A stretch of 64,000 nt of DNA, from positions 288,001 to 352,000 of the forward strand of contig OZ244621.1 in the NCBI GenBank assembly GCA_965218425.1. The letters run 5' to 3'. Below, piece by piece: positions 1 to 6,801 of the stretch. Both the position numbers and the translations under genes were made by a program. The notes beneath the pieces are model-generated. The model had not been told where the DNA came from and did no database searches. It saw nothing but the letters and a program-made list of their open reading frames with translations. The stretch comes from an uncultured Candidatus Binatia bacterium. GTDB taxonomy: Bacteria; Desulfobacterota; Binatia; UBA9968; CAXXLF01. How positions within the stretch are numbered: the stretch's first letter is position 1; every line of letters starts with the position of its first letter.

Positions 1-181
1 GGTCGTAATCAACGAAAATGGCGTCCACGGGACAGACGATTTCGCATTGCTCGCAATCGATACACACCTCGGGATCGATATAGAACTGTGGCGCCCCGGG
101 GGTGGTATGAATGCAGGCCACCGGACATACATCCACGCAGGACCCATCGTTGGTGCAAAGCTCCGTGATGACGTAAGGCAG
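1..181 (-). CDS. Dicluster (7Fe-type, FdxA-like) ferredoxin, runs off the window start; apparent CTG start
   Basis: Hand translation (L)PYVITELCTNDGSCVDVCPVACIHTTPGAPQFYIDPEVCIDCEQCEIVCPVDAIFVDYD, with CxxCxxCxxxCP motif; GGAGAG RBS just upstream; absent from the ORF track. Confidence 0.9.
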   Translation of the reverse strand, partial: MPYVITELCTNDGSCVDVCPVACIHTTPGAPQFYIDPEVCIDCEQCEIVCPVDAIFVDYD

Positions 182-191
182 GTGTTCTCTC

Positions 192-773
192 CTAGCCGTC
201 TGCGATCAGCGGTAAATCGGTGCGGATGACGTTCACCACATGAACCTGGGTCCCGTATTTTTGCGTCGCCAGTTTCCCCTCGGCGTTGATCGTCCCCAGA
301 CCTGCTGCTTCGGCTAGTTGCTCCGCATCAGGGTCCGCCGACGCCGCGGCGCGAAATCCAAGTTCTCTGATCCATGCGCTGAGGACGAAGGTGACGAACA
401 GGCCGTTCTGTACGGGCACCTGGCCACCAACTCCCGGGGCCGTTTGCGGGTCCATTTCCGCTCGTACCGCGCAGATGACCGCGAAGGAAAACCCTTCACT
501 GTTGTCAGATTCATTGGTGTCTAATTTCGTGATGCCCACCAGATCGGCACCCAGATAGCGTGCCAGTTCTTTCACATGGCTGGAAGTAATCTCCGGCGTA
601 TGGATGTCAGCCTTGGTTGGGAAAACATTGCCCTCGGGGGCATTGCGGATCAACTCCGGCACCGAGTTGGCAAGATCGGCCATGGGCTTGTTGAGAAAAG
701 TCTCCCAGTAGGGATCTTCCCGGGCGGCTCTTCCAAGCCAGGGAATATTAAACGGTCCCAACCGCAAGGCCAC
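192..773 (-). CDS. Reductive dehalogenase/QueG-like cobalamin-binding-domain protein lacking the Fe-S domain
   Basis: VKELARYLGADLVGI, LAEAAGLG and IRTDLPL motifs match the upstream RdhA; ends before the Cys motifs; GTG start overlaps the upstream TAG. Confidence 0.75.
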   Translation of the reverse strand: MALRLGPFNIPWLGRAAREDPYWETFLNKPMADLANSVPELIRNAPEGNVFPTKADIHTPEITSSHVKELARYLGADLVGITKLDTNESDNSEGFSFAVICAVRAEMDPQTAPGVGGQVPVQNGLFVTFVLSAWIRELGFRAAASADPDAEQLAEAAGLGTINAEGKLATQKYGTQVHVVNVIRTDLPLIADG

Positions 774-2113
774 TAGACGTCCCGTCTCACGAATCGGTTA
801 GTGTTTTCCTTCAGAGGCGCATAATAGCCCATATTACCGACCACCTCCCCCGATGCTTTGTCCCCTTCATGGGAGGCCGTGCAACCGGCAACGGTACAGG
901 CGTGCTCGCCGGGTTTCGCGCCGGAGTCATAGCCCAGCCATTTCACCCGTGTCTGACGCGCCACCCCCCAGAACCGGTCGTCGATGGCCTTGAGGGCTTT
1001 CACCAGAGTTGGGCGTAAGGGAATGGGGCAGGTGTGGAGAGCCAAAATAGTAAGGCTTCGCCACCAAACGTTGGGTTTGGTAAAGGGACAAACGGTGGCG
1101 CAGGTCAGGCAGCTCCCCCAATGTTCGTGGGTATAGGCCCGCAGCTTGTAACAGGTGAGCCAGTTGATCTTGTACTTCTCAACCCCGTTGTAAACCTCCT
1201 TGTCCTCGAAGGTGATGCTGTTGGTGGGACAATTGATGGCGCATTTGCGACAGATCTTGCAGAAGTCTTCAACGCCTATGTCAAGGGGTTGGTCCGAAAC
1301 CAATGGGAGGTCGGTTAGTATGGGATCCGGCATATGGATGCGGGCACCGTATTTATCGTTTATGAGGAGCCCGTTGCGGCCCAGCTCGCCGACACCGGAG
1401 GCCAATCCTGAGGCCTGAGGGTTAGCCACACCGCGGAGCGCAGTATACCCCAATTCTTTCACATACCCTTCAAGGGCCTTGAGAATCATGACGCCTCTCA
1501 TCTGCGACACGTGATAGGCGGCGTCACCGATATGGTGCCGATGGGCCTGGAGCTTATTGTAGTCCCATGCTGTGGTGGCAACGATGAGGTAAGGGAATTT
1601 GCGGACCAGCTCCTCAGGCGCCTGGGTCTCATACGCGTCCTCGGCCGTACCGTCCTGGACGTAGCGGGCTCCGGCGTACAGGAAGCTCGGATGCGCTTTG
1701 GCGACGGCCACAATATCGGCACCCATATAGCGGGCGACGGCTTTGATGTGGCGCGTCATGGCGGCTGGATCATCCACCGAAACCCGATCCGGATTGACCA
1801 TGCCTTTGCTTGCCCGGTTAACCACCGTGGTAAGGAAATGTCTGTGGTCGGCGAAATGGTTTGGAGCGGATACCCGGGTCAAGGGATCTTTGGAAACCGT
1901 GTTGTGCTGATAGTTGAATAGGGCCTTCCCCAACTCACCGCGCCGGTTCTTTGGGTGCGGCGACTGGTTCATGTCAACGTTGGCGACGGGTCCGACAATG
2001 CGAACCGTCCGGCCAAGGTAGGGGGGAGGAGGAAGGTCAGCCTTCGCTTGATTACTTTTGAGGCCATCACCCTCGTTAAGTGGCTTTGCGGTACTCTCCA
2101 GTCCTTCAACCAT
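773..2113 (-). CDS. rdhA: Reductive dehalogenase family protein (B12, two Fe-S motifs), no TAT signal
   Basis: IKAVARYMGADIV, GVGELGRNGLLI..YG..I, TDLPL, FCKICRKCAINCP, CLTCATVCPF. Confidence 0.8.
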   Translation of the reverse strand: MVEGLESTAKPLNEGDGLKSNQAKADLPPPPYLGRTVRIVGPVANVDMNQSPHPKNRRGELGKALFNYQHNTVSKDPLTRVSAPNHFADHRHFLTTVVNRASKGMVNPDRVSVDDPAAMTRHIKAVARYMGADIVAVAKAHPSFLYAGARYVQDGTAEDAYETQAPEELVRKFPYLIVATTAWDYNKLQAHRHHIGDAAYHVSQMRGVMILKALEGYVKELGYTALRGVANPQASGLASGVGELGRNGLLINDKYGARIHMPDPILTDLPLVSDQPLDIGVEDFCKICRKCAINCPTNSITFEDKEVYNGVEKYKINWLTCYKLRAYTHEHWGSCLTCATVCPFTKPNVWWRSLTILALHTCPIPLRPTLVKALKAIDDRFWGVARQTRVKWLGYDSGAKPGEHACTVAGCTASHEGDKASGEVVGNMGYYAPLKENTNRFVRRDV

Positions 2114-2209: not shown

Positions 2210-2608
2210 TCATGCATATGAGGCGAGAGCAACTTCGGCACATCGTTGGTCCTGATCATCGGTACCACCGGCCACGGCAACGGCGCCTACAACATTACCA
2301 CCCTCCACCACGGGCAGAGCCCCCGCACCGGGCATAATTCGACCGCTGCTGGAAACCACCAAACTCTGGAACCAGGTCTGGCCTGCAACCCCGGACAATT
2401 CCTTGGTGGGTTGCTGGAAACTAGCCGCCGTGTAGGCTTTGTTCAGAGCGATTTCCACCGTGATGGGCCGCGCGCGGTCCATTCGGCCCACTGCGATCAT
2501 TCGGCCACTCTGATCAACCACCACCGCAGTAACCGCGATGTCCAACTGTGCCGCTTCAGTGTGAGCGGCGCGAACTATTTCAATCGCCTTTTCTCCTGGT
2601 ATCGCCAT
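2210..2608 (-). CDS. GlcG/HbpS family heme-binding protein
   Basis: AVVVDQSG, RMD, IALNKAYTA, GAVAVAGGT..QD motifs; 132 aa. Confidence 0.9.
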   Translation of the reverse strand: MAIPGEKAIEIVRAAHTEAAQLDIAVTAVVVDQSGRMIAVGRMDRARPITVEIALNKAYTAASFQQPTKELSGVAGQTWFQSLVVSSSGRIMPGAGALPVVEGGNVVGAVAVAGGTDDQDQRCAEVALASYA

Positions 2609-3293: not shown

Positions 3294-5507
3294 ATGGCGC
3301 AGGTGGTTGGAAGGCCCACACCGAGGGTCGAGGGAGAGGAGAAGGTCACGGGCGAAGCAATTTACAGTGCGGATGTGGCATTGCCGGATATCCTGTGGGG
3401 CAAGATTCTTCGTAGCCCGATTCCTTACGGCCGTATCAAGCGAATCGACGTGAGCCGAGCCGCCCAGGTTCCGGGGGTAAAATCCGTAATCACAGGACAG
3501 GACGTGGCAGGGCTTCTGATCGGCAGGCAGATATACGACACGCCGATCCTCGCAAACGATGTGGTTCGCTTCGTGGGGGATAAAGTGGCCGCCGTAGCGG
3601 CCGAAAGCGAAGACGCCGCAGACCAGGCCCTCCAGCTCATTGAGATTGAATACGAGGAGCGGGAACCCGTGCTAGATCCCCTGGAAGCCTTGAAGCCCAC
3701 GGCCGCCCTGATCCACCCCGATGTCCTCTCCTATAAAGGGCTGCCCAGTCCACTGGAGTCGGCGAGCAATCTTTTTGGTTACTTCTGCTGGGGGAATGGA
3801 GACACTGACGCTGGCTTTCAACAGGCCTACGAGATCGTGGAAAATACCTTCGAGACCCATGTGGTTCACCAGTCCTACATCGAGCCTCACGCGTGCGTGG
3901 TAAAGGCCGATTCTTCCGGGGGGGCGGAGATATGGGCCTGTTGCAAGACTCCCTTTGCAGTGCGCCGGCAACTCTCCAACGCCGTTGGTATCGCACAGGA
4001 AAAACTGGTTTTCCATCCGGTTCACATCGGCGGGGATTTCGGCGGCAAGGGGGGATTCATGAATATCCCCGTGGGTTACTTCCTCTCACTCAAGAGCGGG
4101 GCGCCCGTGAAGGTGGTCATGGACTACGATGAAGAACTCACCGCGGGCAATCCCCGCCATGCTTCGGTGATTAAAATAAAGACTGGAGTTAAGAGAGACG
4201 GGACCATTGTGGCGCACCACATGGAGTTTGTTTTCGATAGCGGCGCCTTCGGCTCTATGAAACCTGCAGGTTACCTCAGGGGTGCCATGAACTGCGCGGG
4301 GCCCTACAAAATGGCGAACTGCAAAATCGAAGAGAAGATGGTCTACACGAACAAGGTTCCATGCGGGCATATGCGCGCCCCTGGAGACCCCCAGGGTTTT
4401 TTCGCCAACGAAAGCCAGATGGACATCGTTGCTCGCAGGATCGGCATGGACCCCGCAGAGTTCAGGCGCAGAAACCTCCTTCGCGATGGGGACACCTCAC
4501 CCACGGGCGAGACCATGTCCCACATCAAGGCCGTCGAAGCACTGGACAAGGCCATTTCCCTGTCGGGCTACCAGAGGCCAAAGCCGAAGAATGTCGGCCG
4601 CGGCCTCGCGTTCGCCGAGTGGGGGCCGGGGGGTGGCGAGGGAAACGTGTTTATCAAGATCGATGAAACAGGGACCATTACCGTCAGCTCTCCGGTGGTG
4701 GATCAGGGAGCCGGTACGTACACGGTGATATGCGGAGTAGTCGCTGAGGAGCTGAAGACTTCCACCCAGGCGTTGAAGTTTGTCCACATGGATACGAGCA
4801 AAGTTCCCAGTGATGGAGGCGTGGGCGGCAGCAGGGCAACGAGGGTTTACGGTAACGCGGCCTACGAAGCGGCACTGAAGGCCAGAGAAGAGCTATTTGC
4901 CATTGCGGGCGACAGCTTCAAGGTCAACCCCGGGGAGCTTTCGCTGGCCAACGAGGCCGTCATCCACCGGCGCGGTAAACGTCGCATGAGTTTTGCCCAG
5001 CTAGCTCAGGCAAAAGGATTGCCCATCGATGTCCAGGGTTACTACAAGCAGTCGGAAAAGACCCATCACGCCACCGTAGCAGCGCAGGTGGCAGAGGTGG
5101 AGGTGGATCCGGAAACGGGCCAGATCAGGCTGAGACAATTTATTTCGGCCCATACCACAGGCAAAGTCATCAACCCCCTCATGCACCAGGGCCAGATTGA
5201 AGGAGGAGTGGTGTTTGGATTGGGGTACGCTTTGACGGAACATTTGATCTTTGACGATGGAAAAGTGATGACGACCAATTTCGGCGATTACAAAATCCCG
5301 AACATTCAGGACATACCGCGCTTAAAGACTGCTGTGATGGAAACGGTCCCGGGGGGGCCGGGTCCCTATAATAGTCTACCCATCGGAGAAGTGGCCAACG
5401 TCCCCACGGCGGCTGCCATCGCCAACGCCATAGAAGACGCTGTGGGATTGAGAATAAAATCCTTGCCGCTCACCGCCGAAAAAGTTTTTGCCGTAACCAG
5501 ATCGTGA
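3294..5507 (+). CDS. Xanthine dehydrogenase/CoxL-family molybdopterin-binding large subunit
   Basis: KVTGEAIY..D, HQSYIEPH, IGGDFGGKG, MRAPG.PQ, VEVDPETG, GQIEGG, GE motifs; GGAGG RBS. Confidence 0.92.
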   Translation: MAQVVGRPTPRVEGEEKVTGEAIYSADVALPDILWGKILRSPIPYGRIKRIDVSRAAQVPGVKSVITGQDVAGLLIGRQIYDTPILANDVVRFVGDKVAAVAAESEDAADQALQLIEIEYEEREPVLDPLEALKPTAALIHPDVLSYKGLPSPLESASNLFGYFCWGNGDTDAGFQQAYEIVENTFETHVVHQSYIEPHACVVKADSSGGAEIWACCKTPFAVRRQLSNAVGIAQEKLVFHPVHIGGDFGGKGGFMNIPVGYFLSLKSGAPVKVVMDYDEELTAGNPRHASVIKIKTGVKRDGTIVAHHMEFVFDSGAFGSMKPAGYLRGAMNCAGPYKMANCKIEEKMVYTNKVPCGHMRAPGDPQGFFANESQMDIVARRIGMDPAEFRRRNLLRDGDTSPTGETMSHIKAVEALDKAISLSGYQRPKPKNVGRGLAFAEWGPGGGEGNVFIKIDETGTITVSSPVVDQGAGTYTVICGVVAEELKTSTQALKFVHMDTSKVPSDGGVGGSRATRVYGNAAYEAALKAREELFAIAGDSFKVNPGELSLANEAVIHRRGKRRMSFAQLAQAKGLPIDVQGYYKQSEKTHHATVAAQVAEVEVDPETGQIRLRQFISAHTTGKVINPLMHQGQIEGGVVFGLGYALTEHLIFDDGKVMTTNFGDYKIPNIQDIPRLKTAVMETVPGGPGPYNSLPIGEVANVPTAAAIANAIEDAVGLRIKSLPLTAEKVFAVTRS

Positions 5508-5529
5508 GGATGGAGGTAAAAGAGAACCC

Positions 5530-6801
5530 ATGGAGAAGGGAACCACACCGGGCACCGTCAGCGTGGCGGGGGTGGCTGAGCAAGCGGTCAGCATCAGCAA
5601 ACGGGAAAAACAGATCGTCATGTGGTTGAACAACATCAACCACATGATGAACCATTTTCAGAACCAGATCGTCTTCGTCATGTACCCCACCATTGCCCGG
5701 GAAATGGGCTTTGGGCCCTTACAGCTGAGCCTTCTCACCGCCGGTCGAAGCATCTTCAATAACTGGGCGCAGCTAGGCTACGGCTTCCTGACACCCTTTG
5801 TTCCACGGTTTCAGCTCTTAGGCATTACCAGCCTGGTTTACGCCTCCGGCACCTTTCTCAGTGGCACTGCCTGGAACTTTTTGAGCTTTCTGGGCATCCG
5901 ATGCCTTGCAGCTGCCGGCTCAAGCTCCATGCATCCCGTGGGCACCAGCCTCCTGGCAAGCTACTTCCGGGAAAACCGGGGCGCGGTGCTCGCCTTAAAC
6001 AGCAGCATATCCCAGGTGGGTAGCATTATGGCGCCTTTGCTGGGAGGCTTCTTGCTTCTCTCCATCGGTTGGCGCAACACTTTTTTCACCGTGGCCATTC
6101 TGAGCGTGTTCATGGCCGTGGCCTACTTCTTTTTTCGCGACCGCGTCAGGGACAACACGAAAACCGGGGAATCCAAAAAAGCAAAGCTCGCTCGCAGCAC
6201 GGCAAGCTATCTACGGCTGCTGCGCAACCGTAACTTCATGTTCATCGCCCTGGTGTTTCTCGTTGGCGGTGCTGGTCGAGGCGAAGTGATGCCCACCTAC
6301 CTGCCCCTTTACCTGGAGCGGGACTTCGGCTTCGCCACGACGTTCACCATCGCAGTGTTGTTCCTGTTCCAGCTGGGCGGTCTCGCCGGACCTCTGGTGT
6401 TCGGGTGGATCTCAGACCGCGGTTCCCGCAAGCGGGTCACCCAGACGTCGCTGTTTCTCTCCGGATTGGCGGCCATCGGTTTGGCCTGGCAGGGACCCAA
6501 CCCGACTATGATCGTTCTCAACGTCCTTTTCTTTGGAGCCGTAACCCACTCTCGTGGGAGCCTGACCCAGGCCATGGTGGCCGACTCGGTTACGGAAGAA
6601 GACCAGGATGCGGCCTTCAGCCTTTATTTCTTTCTTGGATTTCTGTCGGCTCCGGTGTGGGCCATTGTGACCGGCTACCTCTTCCAGGCCTATAGCTTTA
6701 CCGTGGCTTTTTCGGTTATGTCCACCAGCTTTTTCGCGGCAATGCTCGTAATGAACCTGGTGCAGGACACACGAAAACCGCTGGTGCAGCATAAAGCCTA
6801 G
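5530..6801 (+). CDS. MFS transporter
   Basis: About 12 hydrophobic segments; GWISDRGSRK motif A. Confidence 0.9.
   Translation: MEKGTTPGTVSVAGVAEQAVSISKREKQIVMWLNNINHMMNHFQNQIVFVMYPTIAREMGFGPLQLSLLTAGRSIFNNWAQLGYGFLTPFVPRFQLLGITSLVYASGTFLSGTAWNFLSFLGIRCLAAAGSSSMHPVGTSLLASYFRENRGAVLALNSSISQVGSIMAPLLGGFLLLSIGWRNTFFTVAILSVFMAVAYFFFRDRVRDNTKTGESKKAKLARSTASYLRLLRNRNFMFIALVFLVGGAGRGEVMPTYLPLYLERDFGFATTFTIAVLFLFQLGGLAGPLVFGWISDRGSRKRVTQTSLFLSGLAAIGLAWQGPNPTMIVLNVLFFGAVTHSRGSLTQAMVADSVTEEDQDAAFSLYFFLGFLSAPVWAIVTGYLFQAYSFTVAFSVMSTSFFAAMLVMNLVQDTRKPLVQHKA

What the first reader, a model, noticed from the sequence alone, without database searches (positions are those of the whole stretch)
192..773. Dehalogenase half-protein ends where the Fe-S domain would begin, followed by a free ferredoxin
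Seen: the protein keeps the GADLVGI, A..AGLG and TDLPL landmarks, then stops 4 residues after TDLPL. The neighbouring RdhA continues from TDLPL into FCKICRKC. The ferredoxin gene follows in a different frame with its own RBS. Inference: a naturally split dehalogenase, a B12 chaperone or a non-catalytic dimer partner.
Basis: partly seen in the sequence, partly recalled or inferred. Interest (0 to 1): 0.7.

Follow-up and report, generated by a model that had tools for sequence, protein, structure and literature searches.

The report
Stand-alone vestigial dehalogenase core subunit
This short gene is a conserved, separately encoded copy of the vitamin-B12-binding core of a reductive dehalogenase that lacks the iron-sulfur part; it is predicted to pair with the full-length enzyme encoded just upstream as a likely non-catalytic partner, which would be a two-gene version of an arrangement known so far only inside single enzymes.

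Summary
ORF 192-773 (minus strand, 193 aa) has the RdhA core landmarks and stops 4 residues after TDLPL, where the neighbouring 446-aa RdhA-like protein continues into its Fe-S motifs.

It is not a recent truncation.
- The best 66 of 1.84 billion representatives are all 292 aa or shorter.
- 1388 clusters of similar length exist, named "hypothetical", with no Pfam family.
- dN/dS is about 0.16.

The gene always sits in one cassette: HbpS-like, RdhA-like, half, ferredoxin-HbpS fusion. This holds in Binatia-titled and other uncultured-bacterium contigs. Its GTG start overlaps the RdhA stop (TAGTG).

The "free ferredoxin" is a 7Fe-type ferredoxin fused to an HbpS-like domain. It runs off the window and starts with CTG here.

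The AF2 model (pLDDT 90) matches the vestigial N-terminal domain of NpRdhA best (Z 17-18). A three-chain prediction puts the half on the RdhA-like protein through homologous helices of both chains (ipSAE 0.84, best control 0.00). The half family has lost 9 of 39 columns conserved in catalytic cores, and 7 of those 9 are also lost in cis-vestigial domains.

Best reading (about 0.6): a trans-encoded vestigial pseudo-dimer partner. Rivals are a B12 carrier or a split enzyme. It is a new variant of a known kind.

The parts
192..773 (-). Half gene, 193 aa: an RdhA-type cobalamin-binding-core paralogue without an Fe-S domain. It starts with GTG at 773-771 and stops with TAG at 194-192.
   Evidence: Orthologues of the same length.
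773..2113 (-). Full-length RdhA-like protein, 446 aa, with no twin-arginine motif seen at its N-terminus. It has the core plus CxxCxxCxxxCP and CxxCxxxCP motifs and a conserved C-terminal extension of about 90 aa. It is the predicted partner of the half.
   Evidence: PceA E 2.1e-28; NpRdhA core 346-587 E 5e-28.
771..775 (-). TAGTG junction: the stop of the RdhA-like gene overlaps the GTG start of the half by 1 nt, which suggests translational coupling.
   Evidence: sequence; a 1-nt overlap in 25 of 50 related loci and 0 nt in 6. In 14 loci the script over-extended the start, and the remaining 5 gave other values.
2210..2608 (-). HbpS-like / GlcG-type protein (PF03928), 132 aa, the first gene of the cassette.
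   Evidence: E 2e-28; PDB relatives 2a2l, NahX, PduO C-terminal domain, EfgA, HbpS; upstream in 50 of 57 loci; the other 7 lack upstream sequence.
1..181 (-). First 60 codons of the ferredoxin-HbpS fusion gene (220 aa in all). It continues beyond the window's left edge to genome position window -481. The ferredoxin has a 7Fe-type cysteine pattern.
   Evidence: FdxA_Actino E 3e-20; PF03928 E 2.8e-29 at residues 88-212.
179..193 (-). AGGAGA (193-188), overlapping the half's TAG stop, then 6 nt, then CTG (181-179), the only candidate start for the ferredoxin-HbpS gene.
   Evidence: the same-genus locus L013 has a spacer of about 98 nt and a TTG start here.

Best explanation
ORF 192-773 encodes a conserved stand-alone paralogue of the RdhA cobalamin-binding core that lacks the Fe-S domain, and it is predicted to form a pseudo-symmetric heterodimer with the full-length RdhA-like enzyme encoded immediately upstream, likely as a non-catalytic partner.

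Shown here:
- The protein has the RdhA core fold and ends where the Fe-S domain would begin.
- It belongs to a large family of proteins about 190-215 aa long and is under purifying selection.
- It is nearly always encoded in the cassette HbpS-like, RdhA-like, half, ferredoxin-HbpS, with its start overlapping the RdhA stop.
- On an unrooted tree the family groups with the clade of its neighbouring RdhA-like genes.

Inferred:
- An ancestral RdhA-like gene was duplicated in tandem, and one copy lost its Fe-S domain and several active-site or cofactor positions.
- That copy kept the dimerisation surface, so it takes the place of the second monomer of a PceA-type homodimer.
- This is the role that the fused vestigial N-terminal domain plays in NpRdhA-type catabolic dehalogenases. 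The heterodimer would then have one active site.

Whether the half still binds a corrinoid, and what the two HbpS-like modules and the 7Fe ferredoxin do, is not settled. They would plausibly supply electrons or handle the cofactor.
For: 1. The short form is old and conserved.
- Orthologues at 53-82% identity were found in 9 other genomes among the 41 scanned (own genome included), with open frames of 181-271 aa and no internal stops.
- The best 66 hits among 1.84 billion representatives are all 292 aa or shorter, and the first longer protein is at rank 67.
- 1388 clusters of 106-338 aa have E <= 1e-3.
- All 50 related genes end 3-9 residues after the TDLPL motif, 38 of them at exactly 4.
- The median NG86 dN/dS is 0.156 over 329 pairs. 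For the window against L013 it is 0.21, compared with 0.054 for the RdhA-like gene.

2. Linkage to the RdhA-like gene.
- It lies directly upstream in 55 of 57 genome loci; the other 2 loci begin inside the half.
- It lies directly upstream in 50 of 54 metagenome loci of distant members.
- The junction is TAGTG or has 0 nt of spacing in 31 of 50 loci.

3. Fold.
- The AF2 model has pLDDT 90.2.
- The best VIA-align match is NpRdhA residues 38-220: Z 17.3-18.0 for the three best chains (15.7-15.8 for two further NpRdhA entries), rmsd 3.1 over 162 residues. The PceA core gives Z 14.2-15.9.
- The catalytic core of NpRdhA is at 346-587, so 38-220 is its N-terminal domain.
- A passage of PMC10463259 says this vestigial domain binds no cobalamin and mimics the PceA monomer-monomer interface.

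4. Predicted complex of RdhA-like, ferredoxin-HbpS and half.
- ipSAE is 0.84 (runs 0.83, 0.84, 0.84) against a best control of 0.00. That mark was reached by 116 of 157 solved complexes and 2 of 215 mismatched pairs.
- The runs agree in at least 71% of contacts, and the partner's pLDDT is at least 81.
- Replacing the RdhA-like chain drops the score to 0.00.
- Interface residues of the half (20-55, 70-74, 115-138) and of the RdhA-like protein (77-130, 202-220) are homologous positions under the alignment. That is what a heterodimer derived from a homodimer should look like.

5. Lost positions.
- Of 39 columns conserved at 75% or more in 31 full-length cores, the half family keeps 30 and loses 9. 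The lost positions correspond to RdhA-like E243, G245, R246, R258, Y146, Y185, I251, I123 and N107.
- 7 of these 9 are also lost in the N-terminal domains of three two-core proteins (hypergeometric p 6e-4).
- The position of PceA R305 / NpRdhA K488 is an invariant His in the RdhA-like clade and variable in the half family.

6. Tree.
- 49 of 51 short rows form one clade (SH-aLRT 99).
- That clade joins the clade of neighbouring RdhA-like cores (99) on one side of a branch with support 98.
Against: - Binding is only predicted. PceA homodimers and the NpRdhA intramolecular interface are solved, so the high score may reflect likeness to them and not real pairing of these two proteins.
- A homodimer of either protein was not tested.
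- The predicted interface is only modestly more conserved than the rest of the protein (0.62 against 0.55, permutation p 0.04).
- The half keeps 30 of 39 conserved core columns, including AGLG and TDLPL, so some cofactor-side function could survive.
- The dimer-partner model does not explain why a ferredoxin-HbpS gene follows the half in 53 of the 54 genome loci with downstream sequence and in 50 of 51 metagenome loci.
- Cytoplasmic RdhA-like genes without a half exist in the same order (L011, L012).
- In three near-identical marine loci the RdhA gene is not directly adjacent. In L077 it lies 2.9 kb upstream.
- The tree has no outgroup, so the sister relation depends on where the root lies.
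Confidence: 0.6

Rival explanations
1. Corrinoid carrier or loading factor. The half would still bind a corrinoid in its exposed pocket. Together with the two HbpS-like modules and the 7Fe ferredoxin it would deliver, hold or reductively repair the B12 cofactor of the RdhA-like enzyme.
For: - The half keeps 30 of 39 conserved core columns, including the AGLG and TDLPL motifs.
- The same fold is used by the B12 trafficking proteins MMACHC and MMADHC (Z 7.3-7.9).
- PDB relatives of the HbpS-like gene include the C-terminal domain of a PduO-type cobalamin adenosyltransferase (5cx7).
- The cassette keeps two HbpS-like modules in nearly every locus.
- From my own recall, not from a call: corrinoid binding has been reported for HbpS and for the PduO C-terminal domain.
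Against: - The Glu and Arg of the AGLGExGRxG motif and the Arg of the GxR motif, conserved in catalytic cores, are lost, and the same positions are lost in cis-vestigial domains.
- In RdhA the Fe-S domain closes the cofactor site, and the half has none.
- No tool here can test corrinoid binding.
Confidence: 0.17
2. Naturally split second enzyme. The half would be the B12 subunit and the ferredoxin domain of the downstream fusion would supply its Fe-S clusters in trans, giving a second catalytic unit beside the full-length RdhA-like enzyme.
For: - The half ends exactly at the boundary between core and Fe-S domain.
- A ferredoxin-bearing gene follows in 53 of 54 genome loci with downstream sequence and 50 of 51 metagenome loci.
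- In the window only 10 nt separate the half's stop from the ferredoxin's start.
Against: - The ferredoxin belongs to the FdxA 7Fe family (NCBIfam FdxA_Actino E 3e-20). Its cysteine pattern is C-x5-C-x3-CP ... CxxCxxCxxxCP, not the RdhA Fe-S domain with its long insert.
- The spacer varies from 2 to 227 nt, whereas the half's start overlaps the RdhA stop.
- Positions conserved in catalytic cores are lost. The proton-donor region reads GIGGQ, and the R305/K488 position is variable.
Confidence: 0.1
3. Decaying remnant of a tandem duplicate, with no function of its own.
For: It evolves faster than its neighbours. Median identity to the window's proteins is 65%, against 76% (RdhA-like), 72% (ferredoxin-HbpS) and 88% (HbpS-like). 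Its dN/dS is higher than that of the RdhA-like gene.
Against: - The frame is intact in all full-length matches.
- dN/dS is about 0.16.
- The family spans identities down to about 31% with conserved motifs and a conserved end.
- The model is confident, with pLDDT 90.
Confidence: 0.02

Closest known systems
Vestigial N-terminal cobalamin-binding-core duplication of catabolic reductive dehalogenases (NpRdhA, JtRdhA, BhbA type)
   Same: - It has the RdhA core fold without Fe-S clusters.
- It is the best structural match (NpRdhA 38-220, Z 17-18).
- The predicted interface with a catalytic core is of the homodimer type.
- The same conserved core positions are lost as in cis-vestigial domains.
   Different: - Here it is a separate gene downstream of the catalytic gene, not an N-terminal domain of the same chain.
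- It groups with its own neighbour's clade and not with the cis-vestigial domains examined, so its origin is independent.
- It comes with HbpS-like and ferredoxin-HbpS genes and not with a fused NAD(P)H reductase domain.
PceA-type respiratory RdhA homodimer
   Same: It has the same core fold (Z 14-16). The long central helix and the N-terminal segment of both chains are predicted at the interface.
   Different: - One partner has no Fe-S domain and has lost conserved core positions.
- No twin-arginine motif was seen in the RdhA-like N-terminus.
- The ORFs directly flanking the cassette are the HbpS-like and ferredoxin-HbpS genes. No specific search for RdhB was run.
MMACHC-MMADHC (CblC-CblD) pair of B12 trafficking
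   Same: The fold is of the nitroreductase type (Z 7.3-7.9). From recall: a degenerate paralogue pairs with a cofactor-binding paralogue in place of a homodimer.
   Different: The relationship is distant, at 10-14% identity. That is a eukaryotic trafficking system, not a reductase with Fe-S clusters. This is an analogy, not membership.
Simplified cytosolic RdhA-like proteins (Microbiome 2025, PMC12219181, passages read)
   Same: The neighbouring 446-aa protein fits that description: cytosolic, about 400 aa, and without a fused vestigial domain.
   Different: The passages read describe no separately encoded vestigial domain. Here such a domain is encoded by the next gene.

Membership tests
Reductive dehalogenase catalytic subunit RdhA (TIGR02486) | Reaches the family model's curated score | tested here: not met
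   44.4 bits against a cut-off of 160.35, with two partial stretches. Pfam finds no family.
Reductive dehalogenase catalytic subunit RdhA (TIGR02486) | Cobalamin-binding core of the nitroreductase-like fold | tested here: met
   pLDDT 90.2. PceA Z 14-16, NpRdhA Z 17-18, QueG Z 12.
Reductive dehalogenase catalytic subunit RdhA (TIGR02486) | Two [4Fe-4S] binding motifs C-terminal to the core | tested here: not met
   the protein stops 4 residues after TDLPL, and its only cysteine is C101. All 50 relatives examined end 3-9 residues after the motif.
Reductive dehalogenase catalytic subunit RdhA (TIGR02486) | Conserved active-site and cofactor-side residues (PceA Y246 and R305; NpRdhA Y426 and K488; Arg of AGLGExGRxG) | tested here: not met
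   The region reads GIGGQ where the Tyr lies. The R305/K488 position is variable. The Glu and Arg of the AGLG motif are kept in 2% and 12% of the family.
Vestigial core domain of catabolic RdhAs (NpRdhA N-terminal domain) | RdhA core fold without Fe-S clusters, most like the solved vestigial domain | tested here: met
   the best match is NpRdhA 38-220, Z 17.3-18.0, rmsd 3.1 over 162 residues. One search places the catalytic core at 346-587.
Vestigial core domain of catabolic RdhAs (NpRdhA N-terminal domain) | Part of the same polypeptide, N-terminal to the catalytic core | tested here: not met
   it is a separate gene downstream of the catalytic gene in all loci. Fused two-core proteins (P0068, L141, L144) are a different clade.
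Vestigial core domain of catabolic RdhAs (NpRdhA N-terminal domain) | Packs on the catalytic core in the way the second monomer of PceA does | tested here: inconclusive
   predicted with ipSAE 0.84 against 0.00, using homologous surfaces of both chains. This is a prediction and may lean on solved relatives.
Vestigial core domain of catabolic RdhAs (NpRdhA N-terminal domain) | Does not bind cobalamin | not testable with these tools
   There is only indirect evidence: conserved positions are lost.
Epoxyqueuosine reductase QueG | Reaches the QueG model; Fe-S domain and C-terminal tRNA-binding part | tested here: not met
   no QueG hit for the half. Structural Z is 12, below the RdhA matches. One source names a relative 'epoxyqueuosine reductase', which the evidence here does not support.

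The most novel reading that the evidence does not exclude
The cassette is a previously undescribed four-protein B12 enzyme system of uncultured soil and marine bacteria. A cytoplasmic RdhA-like reductase works as an obligate heterodimer with a trans-encoded degenerate core. That core also serves as the docking and hand-over platform through which two HbpS-like corrinoid-binding modules and a 7Fe ferredoxin load and reductively reactivate the cofactor.
Probability: 0.15. Interest if true: 0.8.

Novelty: new variant of a known kind. Interest (0 to 1): 0.6.

Why it matters
Vestigial core domains are known in reductive dehalogenases only as fused N-terminal duplications that make catabolic enzymes monomeric. 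This locus shows the same solution as a separate, translationally coupled gene. It arose independently and is conserved across a family of more than a thousand sequence clusters that has no Pfam family and is annotated as hypothetical.

Three consequences follow:
- RdhA surveys that count only full-length genes would miss a subunit.
- Heterologous expression of these cytosolic "simplified" RdhA-like enzymes may need the half, and perhaps the HbpS-like and ferredoxin-HbpS proteins, to give soluble, cofactor-loaded protein.
- The cassette marks an unexplored B12-dependent reductase system in Binatia-type and other uncultured bacteria. Its substrate is unknown.

Tried and rejected
- Frameshift or sequencing error joining the half to the ferredoxin. 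Rejected: related loci have a spacer of 2-227 nt, and the 44 whose ferredoxin match begins at residue 1 start with ATG, GTG or TTG. Two database proteins that look fused (P0020, 292 aa; P0083, 366 aa) read as frameshifted calls.
- Recent truncation. Rejected.
- Half binding the ferredoxin-HbpS protein on its own. In the control with the RdhA-like chain replaced, the score was 0.00. This gives no support, and it is not evidence against binding. In the full model only the HbpS-domain residues 101 and 202-213 touch the half.
- The first genome-contig scan with the 33-row alignment failed for lack of a conserved stretch. It was repeated with an 11-row alignment.
- Search for fused forms. Only 16 longer proteins had E <= 1e-5, and all but P0083 (69% identity over 25% of the query, probably a frameshifted call) are ordinary RdhA-type proteins at 27-35% identity.
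- Conserved neighbours beyond the four genes. None is consistent in the 14 loci sampled. Amidohydro_2 genes recur (L020, L022, L067, L077, and 8-11 kb left of the window), which is a weak hint of aromatic catabolism.
- Literature. Searches found no description of a separately encoded vestigial RdhA core or of this cassette. None of the 15 papers listed holds 'reductive dehalogenase' together with Binatia, Binatota, Rokubacteria or Methylomirabilota. The NpRdhA structure paper (PMC4968649) is not held, so the residues that contact the corrinoid could not be checked against print.
- Earlier findings of this scan: none near this place.

Full report
**Observation.** On the minus strand the window holds a 193-aa ORF (773..192) directly after a 446-aa ORF (2113..773). 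The short protein carries YLGADLVGI, AEAAGLG and RTDLPLIADG and then a stop. The long one continues from TDLPLVSD into [14 protein letters not shown] and a second cysteine motif. BLASTP aligns half 19-192 with RdhA-like 75-274 at 25% identity, E 1e-17. Pfam finds nothing in the half. NCBIfam gives the RDH model at E 1.9e-11 but far below its cut-off (44.4 against 160.35 bits). The long protein scores 145.4 bits on the same model. It matches PceA (E 2.1e-28) and the NpRdhA catalytic core 346-587 (E 5e-28) in the PDB sequences.

**The ferredoxin.** In its frame no ATG, GTG or TTG lies between the upstream stop and the conserved PYVITE N-terminus. The only candidate start is CTG at 181-179, 6 nt after AGGAGA, which overlaps the half's TAG. 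Read on in the genome, the gene encodes 220 aa: an FdxA-like ferredoxin (NCBIfam FdxA_Actino E 3e-20) with the pattern C-x5-C-x3-CP ... CxxCxxCxxxCP, fused to an HbpS-like PF03928 domain. Reading that pattern as the 7Fe type is my recall. A second, free-standing HbpS-like gene lies upstream of the RdhA-like gene at 2608..2210.

**Not a recent truncation.**
- Among 41 genomes scanned (the window's own plus 40 relatives of its order), 10 have a full-length orthologue (the window's own and 9 others at 53-82% identity). Their open frames are 181-271 aa with no internal stops.
- All nine orthologous loci show RdhA-like, then half. In eight the ferredoxin-HbpS gene follows; L010 ends inside the half.
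- An exhaustive phmmer search of 1.84 billion representatives gave 220 hits at E <= 1e-3. The best 66 are all 292 aa or shorter and end where the query ends. The first long protein (603 aa) is at rank 67.
- The word-indexed search found 1388 clusters of 106-338 aa. The 120 listed are 181-217 aa, have no Pfam family and are named "hypothetical protein" where named at all, once "epoxyqueuosine reductase".
- Only 16 longer proteins reach E <= 1e-5. Apart from P0083 (69% identity over 25% of the query, probably a frameshifted call), they are ordinary RdhA-type proteins at 27-35% identity.
- The ESM Atlas neighbours are clusters of 191-198 aa hypothetical proteins.
- A 33-row alignment with identities to the query down to 31% shows family motifs: DPYWDxFIN, GIGGQ, YIRELGY, AGLGTLDxxGRL and TDLPLAxD.
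- In 50 related genes the protein ends 3-9 residues after the TDLPL-like motif, in 38 at exactly 4.
- Pairwise NG86 dN/dS has a median of 0.156 for the half and 0.111 for the RdhA-like gene, over the 329 of 990 pairs with dS < 1.5. The window against L013 gives 0.21 and 0.054.

**The cassette.** A scan of one genome per species found 57 loci. Most records are titled Candidatus Binatia or "delta proteobacterium" MAGs. A few are titled Rokuibacteriota, Chloroflexota, Acidobacteria-type and others. In one search:
- The RdhA-like gene is directly upstream in 55 of 57 loci; the other two begin inside the half.
- The ferredoxin-HbpS gene follows in 53. Three of the remaining four are cut by the contig end, and L053 has 4 kb downstream without it.
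- The HbpS-like gene precedes in 50; the other 7 lack upstream sequence.

Median identity to the window's proteins is 88% for HbpS-like, 76% for RdhA-like, 72% for ferredoxin-HbpS and 65% for the half.

A metagenome scan seeded with distant members returned 80 loci. 61 carry a short half, 17 matches are full-length RdhA-type proteins, and 2 are proteins with two core-like domains. By the script's rule an RdhA Fe-S ORF ends at the half's start in 50 of 54 loci with upstream sequence, and a ferredoxin follows in 50 of 51. Of the four misses, L089 has the RdhA ORF overlapping the half. L077, L083 and L087 are near-identical. In L077 the RdhA lies 2.9 kb upstream, with an Amidohydro_2 gene and a MetE-like gene between.

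The stop of the RdhA-like gene overlaps the half's GTG by one base (TAGTG) in 25 of 50 loci and abuts it in 6. In 14 loci my script over-extended the start, and 5 gave other values. Beyond the four genes the neighbours vary.

**Structure.** AF2 with the family alignment gives pLDDT 90.2 and pTM 0.83. Foldseek ranks PceA, NpRdhA and QueG first. VIA-align's best match is NpRdhA residues 38-220: Z 17.3-18.0 for the three best chains, rmsd 3.1 over 162 residues, 23-24% identity. Two further NpRdhA entries score Z 15.7-15.8. Next come the PceA core (Z 14.2-15.9, rmsd 3.7-8.5), QueG (Z 12) and the B12 trafficking proteins MMACHC and MMADHC (Z 7.3-7.9). Residues 38-220 are not the catalytic core of NpRdhA. 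[quoted passage not shown] It binds no cobalamin and mimics the monomer-monomer interface of the respiratory RdhA dimer.

**Predicted complex.** I folded three chains with their own alignments: RdhA-like, ferredoxin-HbpS, and the half as partner. The result is ipSAE 0.84 (0.83, 0.84, 0.84) against a best control of 0.00. This mark was reached by 116 of 157 solved complexes and 2 of 215 mismatched pairs. The runs agree in at least 71% of contacts and the partner's pLDDT is at least 81. The counts hold only roughly, because my own alignments and three chains were used. The control in which the RdhA-like chain was replaced scored 0.00, so the confident interface is the one with the RdhA-like protein.

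The half contributes residues 20-55, 70-74 and 115-138. The RdhA-like protein contributes 77-130 and 202-220. Under the alignment these are homologous positions (for example half 119, 122, 126, 129-130, 133-134, 137 against RdhA-like 202, 205, 209, 212-213, 216-217, 220). The interface is therefore pseudo-twofold, as expected for a heterodimer derived from a homodimer. Because PceA dimers and NpRdhA are solved, the pass shows likeness and not proof of binding. Interface residues of the half are modestly more conserved than the rest (0.62 against 0.55, permutation p 0.04).

**Lost catalytic-core positions.** On the tree alignment, 39 columns are conserved at 75% or more in 31 full-length cores. 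The half family (49 rows) keeps 30 and loses 9. The lost positions correspond to RdhA-like N107, I123, Y146, Y185, E243, G245, R246, I251 and R258. The N-terminal domains of three two-core proteins lose 11, and 7 are shared with the half (hypergeometric p 6e-4). In NpRdhA's own N-terminal domain the AGLG-motif Glu and Arg are also replaced (alignment). The PceA Y246 region reads GIGGQ in the half. The PceA R305 / NpRdhA K488 position is an invariant His in the RdhA-like clade and variable in the half family. That these positions contact the cofactor or substrate is my inference. The structure paper is not held.

**Origin.** A quick IQ-TREE (LG+C20+F+G4, SH-aLRT) used 85 core domains. These were dereplicated at 62% identity from 179 domain sequences, with two rows of unclear type dropped and the six domains of the three two-core proteins all retained.
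- 49 of 51 short rows fall in one clade (support 99). The two others, P0116 and P0124, fall among full-length proteins and are probably fragments.
- The neighbouring RdhA-like cores form a clade of 11 (99).
- The two clades together sit on one side of a branch with support 98 against 25 other RdhA-type cores.
- The N-terminal domains of the two-core proteins (P0068, L141, L144) group with each other (100), beside their own C-terminal cores at weak support (84).

This suggests that the trans half and those cis domains arose independently. The tree is rooted at the midpoint only, and no QueG outgroup or AU test was run.

**Limits.**
- Binding, loss of cobalamin binding and lack of catalysis are inferred.
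- The near-obligatory ferredoxin-HbpS neighbour is not explained by the dimer-partner model, which leaves room for a cofactor-handling role.
- RdhA-like genes without a half exist in the same order (L011, L012).
- No paper found in searches describes a separately encoded vestigial core. The passages of PMC12219181 read classify cytosolic RdhA-like proteins as self-sufficient, truncated or simplified, without such a subunit. I did not look at the supplements of any paper.

**Verdict.** The gene is a real, conserved member of an unannotated family. It is most likely the trans-encoded counterpart of the vestigial core domain of catabolic dehalogenases, pairing with the RdhA-like enzyme next to it. 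It is a new variant of a known kind, of moderate to good interest.

Noticed in passing
window 179-194 (minus strand); L013 4580-4690: In this genome the spacer between the half and the ferredoxin-HbpS gene is only 10 nt. The half's TAG runs straight into the AGGAGA Shine-Dalgarno sequence, and the start position holds CTG. The same-genus locus L013 has a spacer of about 98 nt and TTG. The other loci whose match begins at residue 1 have ATG or GTG, one more TTG. This looks like a deletion of about 88 nt and a non-canonical start.
   Followed up: partly
window 773-1050 (minus strand; RdhA-like residues about 355-446): The RdhA-like protein has a conserved C-terminal extension of about 90 aa after the second Fe-S motif. 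It has invariant C406, C411 and H415 (CTVAGCTASHEG) and the tail GYYAPLKENTNRFVKRD. There is no family match apart from a weak DUF7162 hit (E 0.069). It may be an extra metal site or docking tail.
   Followed up: no
window 2210-2608 (minus strand): The free-standing HbpS-like gene is the most conserved gene of the cassette (median 88% identity across loci). Its PDB relatives include the PduO C-terminal domain, NahX, EfgA and HbpS, so its ligand here (haem, corrinoid or an aldehyde) is open.
   Followed up: partly
P0068; L141 15-1961; L144 255-2180: These proteins of 603-649 aa have two RdhA core-like domains followed by Fe-S motifs. Their N-terminal domain groups with their own C-terminal core on the tree. 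This points to an independent internal duplication giving an NpRdhA-like architecture in another lineage.
   Followed up: partly
L077 1-4800; L083; L087: In a near-identical set of metagenome loci the half and the ferredoxin-HbpS gene are not directly preceded by the RdhA gene. In L077 an Amidohydro_2 gene and a MetE-like gene on the opposite strand lie between them.
   Followed up: partly
L053 1305-5907: This is the only genome locus with ample downstream sequence (4 kb) in which no ferredoxin-HbpS gene follows the half.
   Followed up: no
window 3294-6801 (plus strand); genome 8-11 kb left of the window (L150 927-4220): A molybdenum hydroxylase of the xanthine dehydrogenase family and an MFS transporter lie on the other strand beside the cassette. 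Three Amidohydro_2 ORFs lie 8-11 kb to the left; two of them overlap by 44 nt and together cover the Pfam profile, so they may be one frameshifted gene. Amidohydro_2 genes recur near the cassette in L020, L022, L067 and L077, a weak hint of aromatic-acid catabolism.
   Followed up: partly
L011 634-1977; L012 3-1163: Genomes of the same order carry cytoplasmic RdhA-like genes with a similar N-terminal motif (RIVGP...HP...RGELG) but no half downstream. G005 has 14 matching stretches on 8 places (about eight RdhA-type open frames of 308-485 aa) and no half orthologue.
   Followed up: partly
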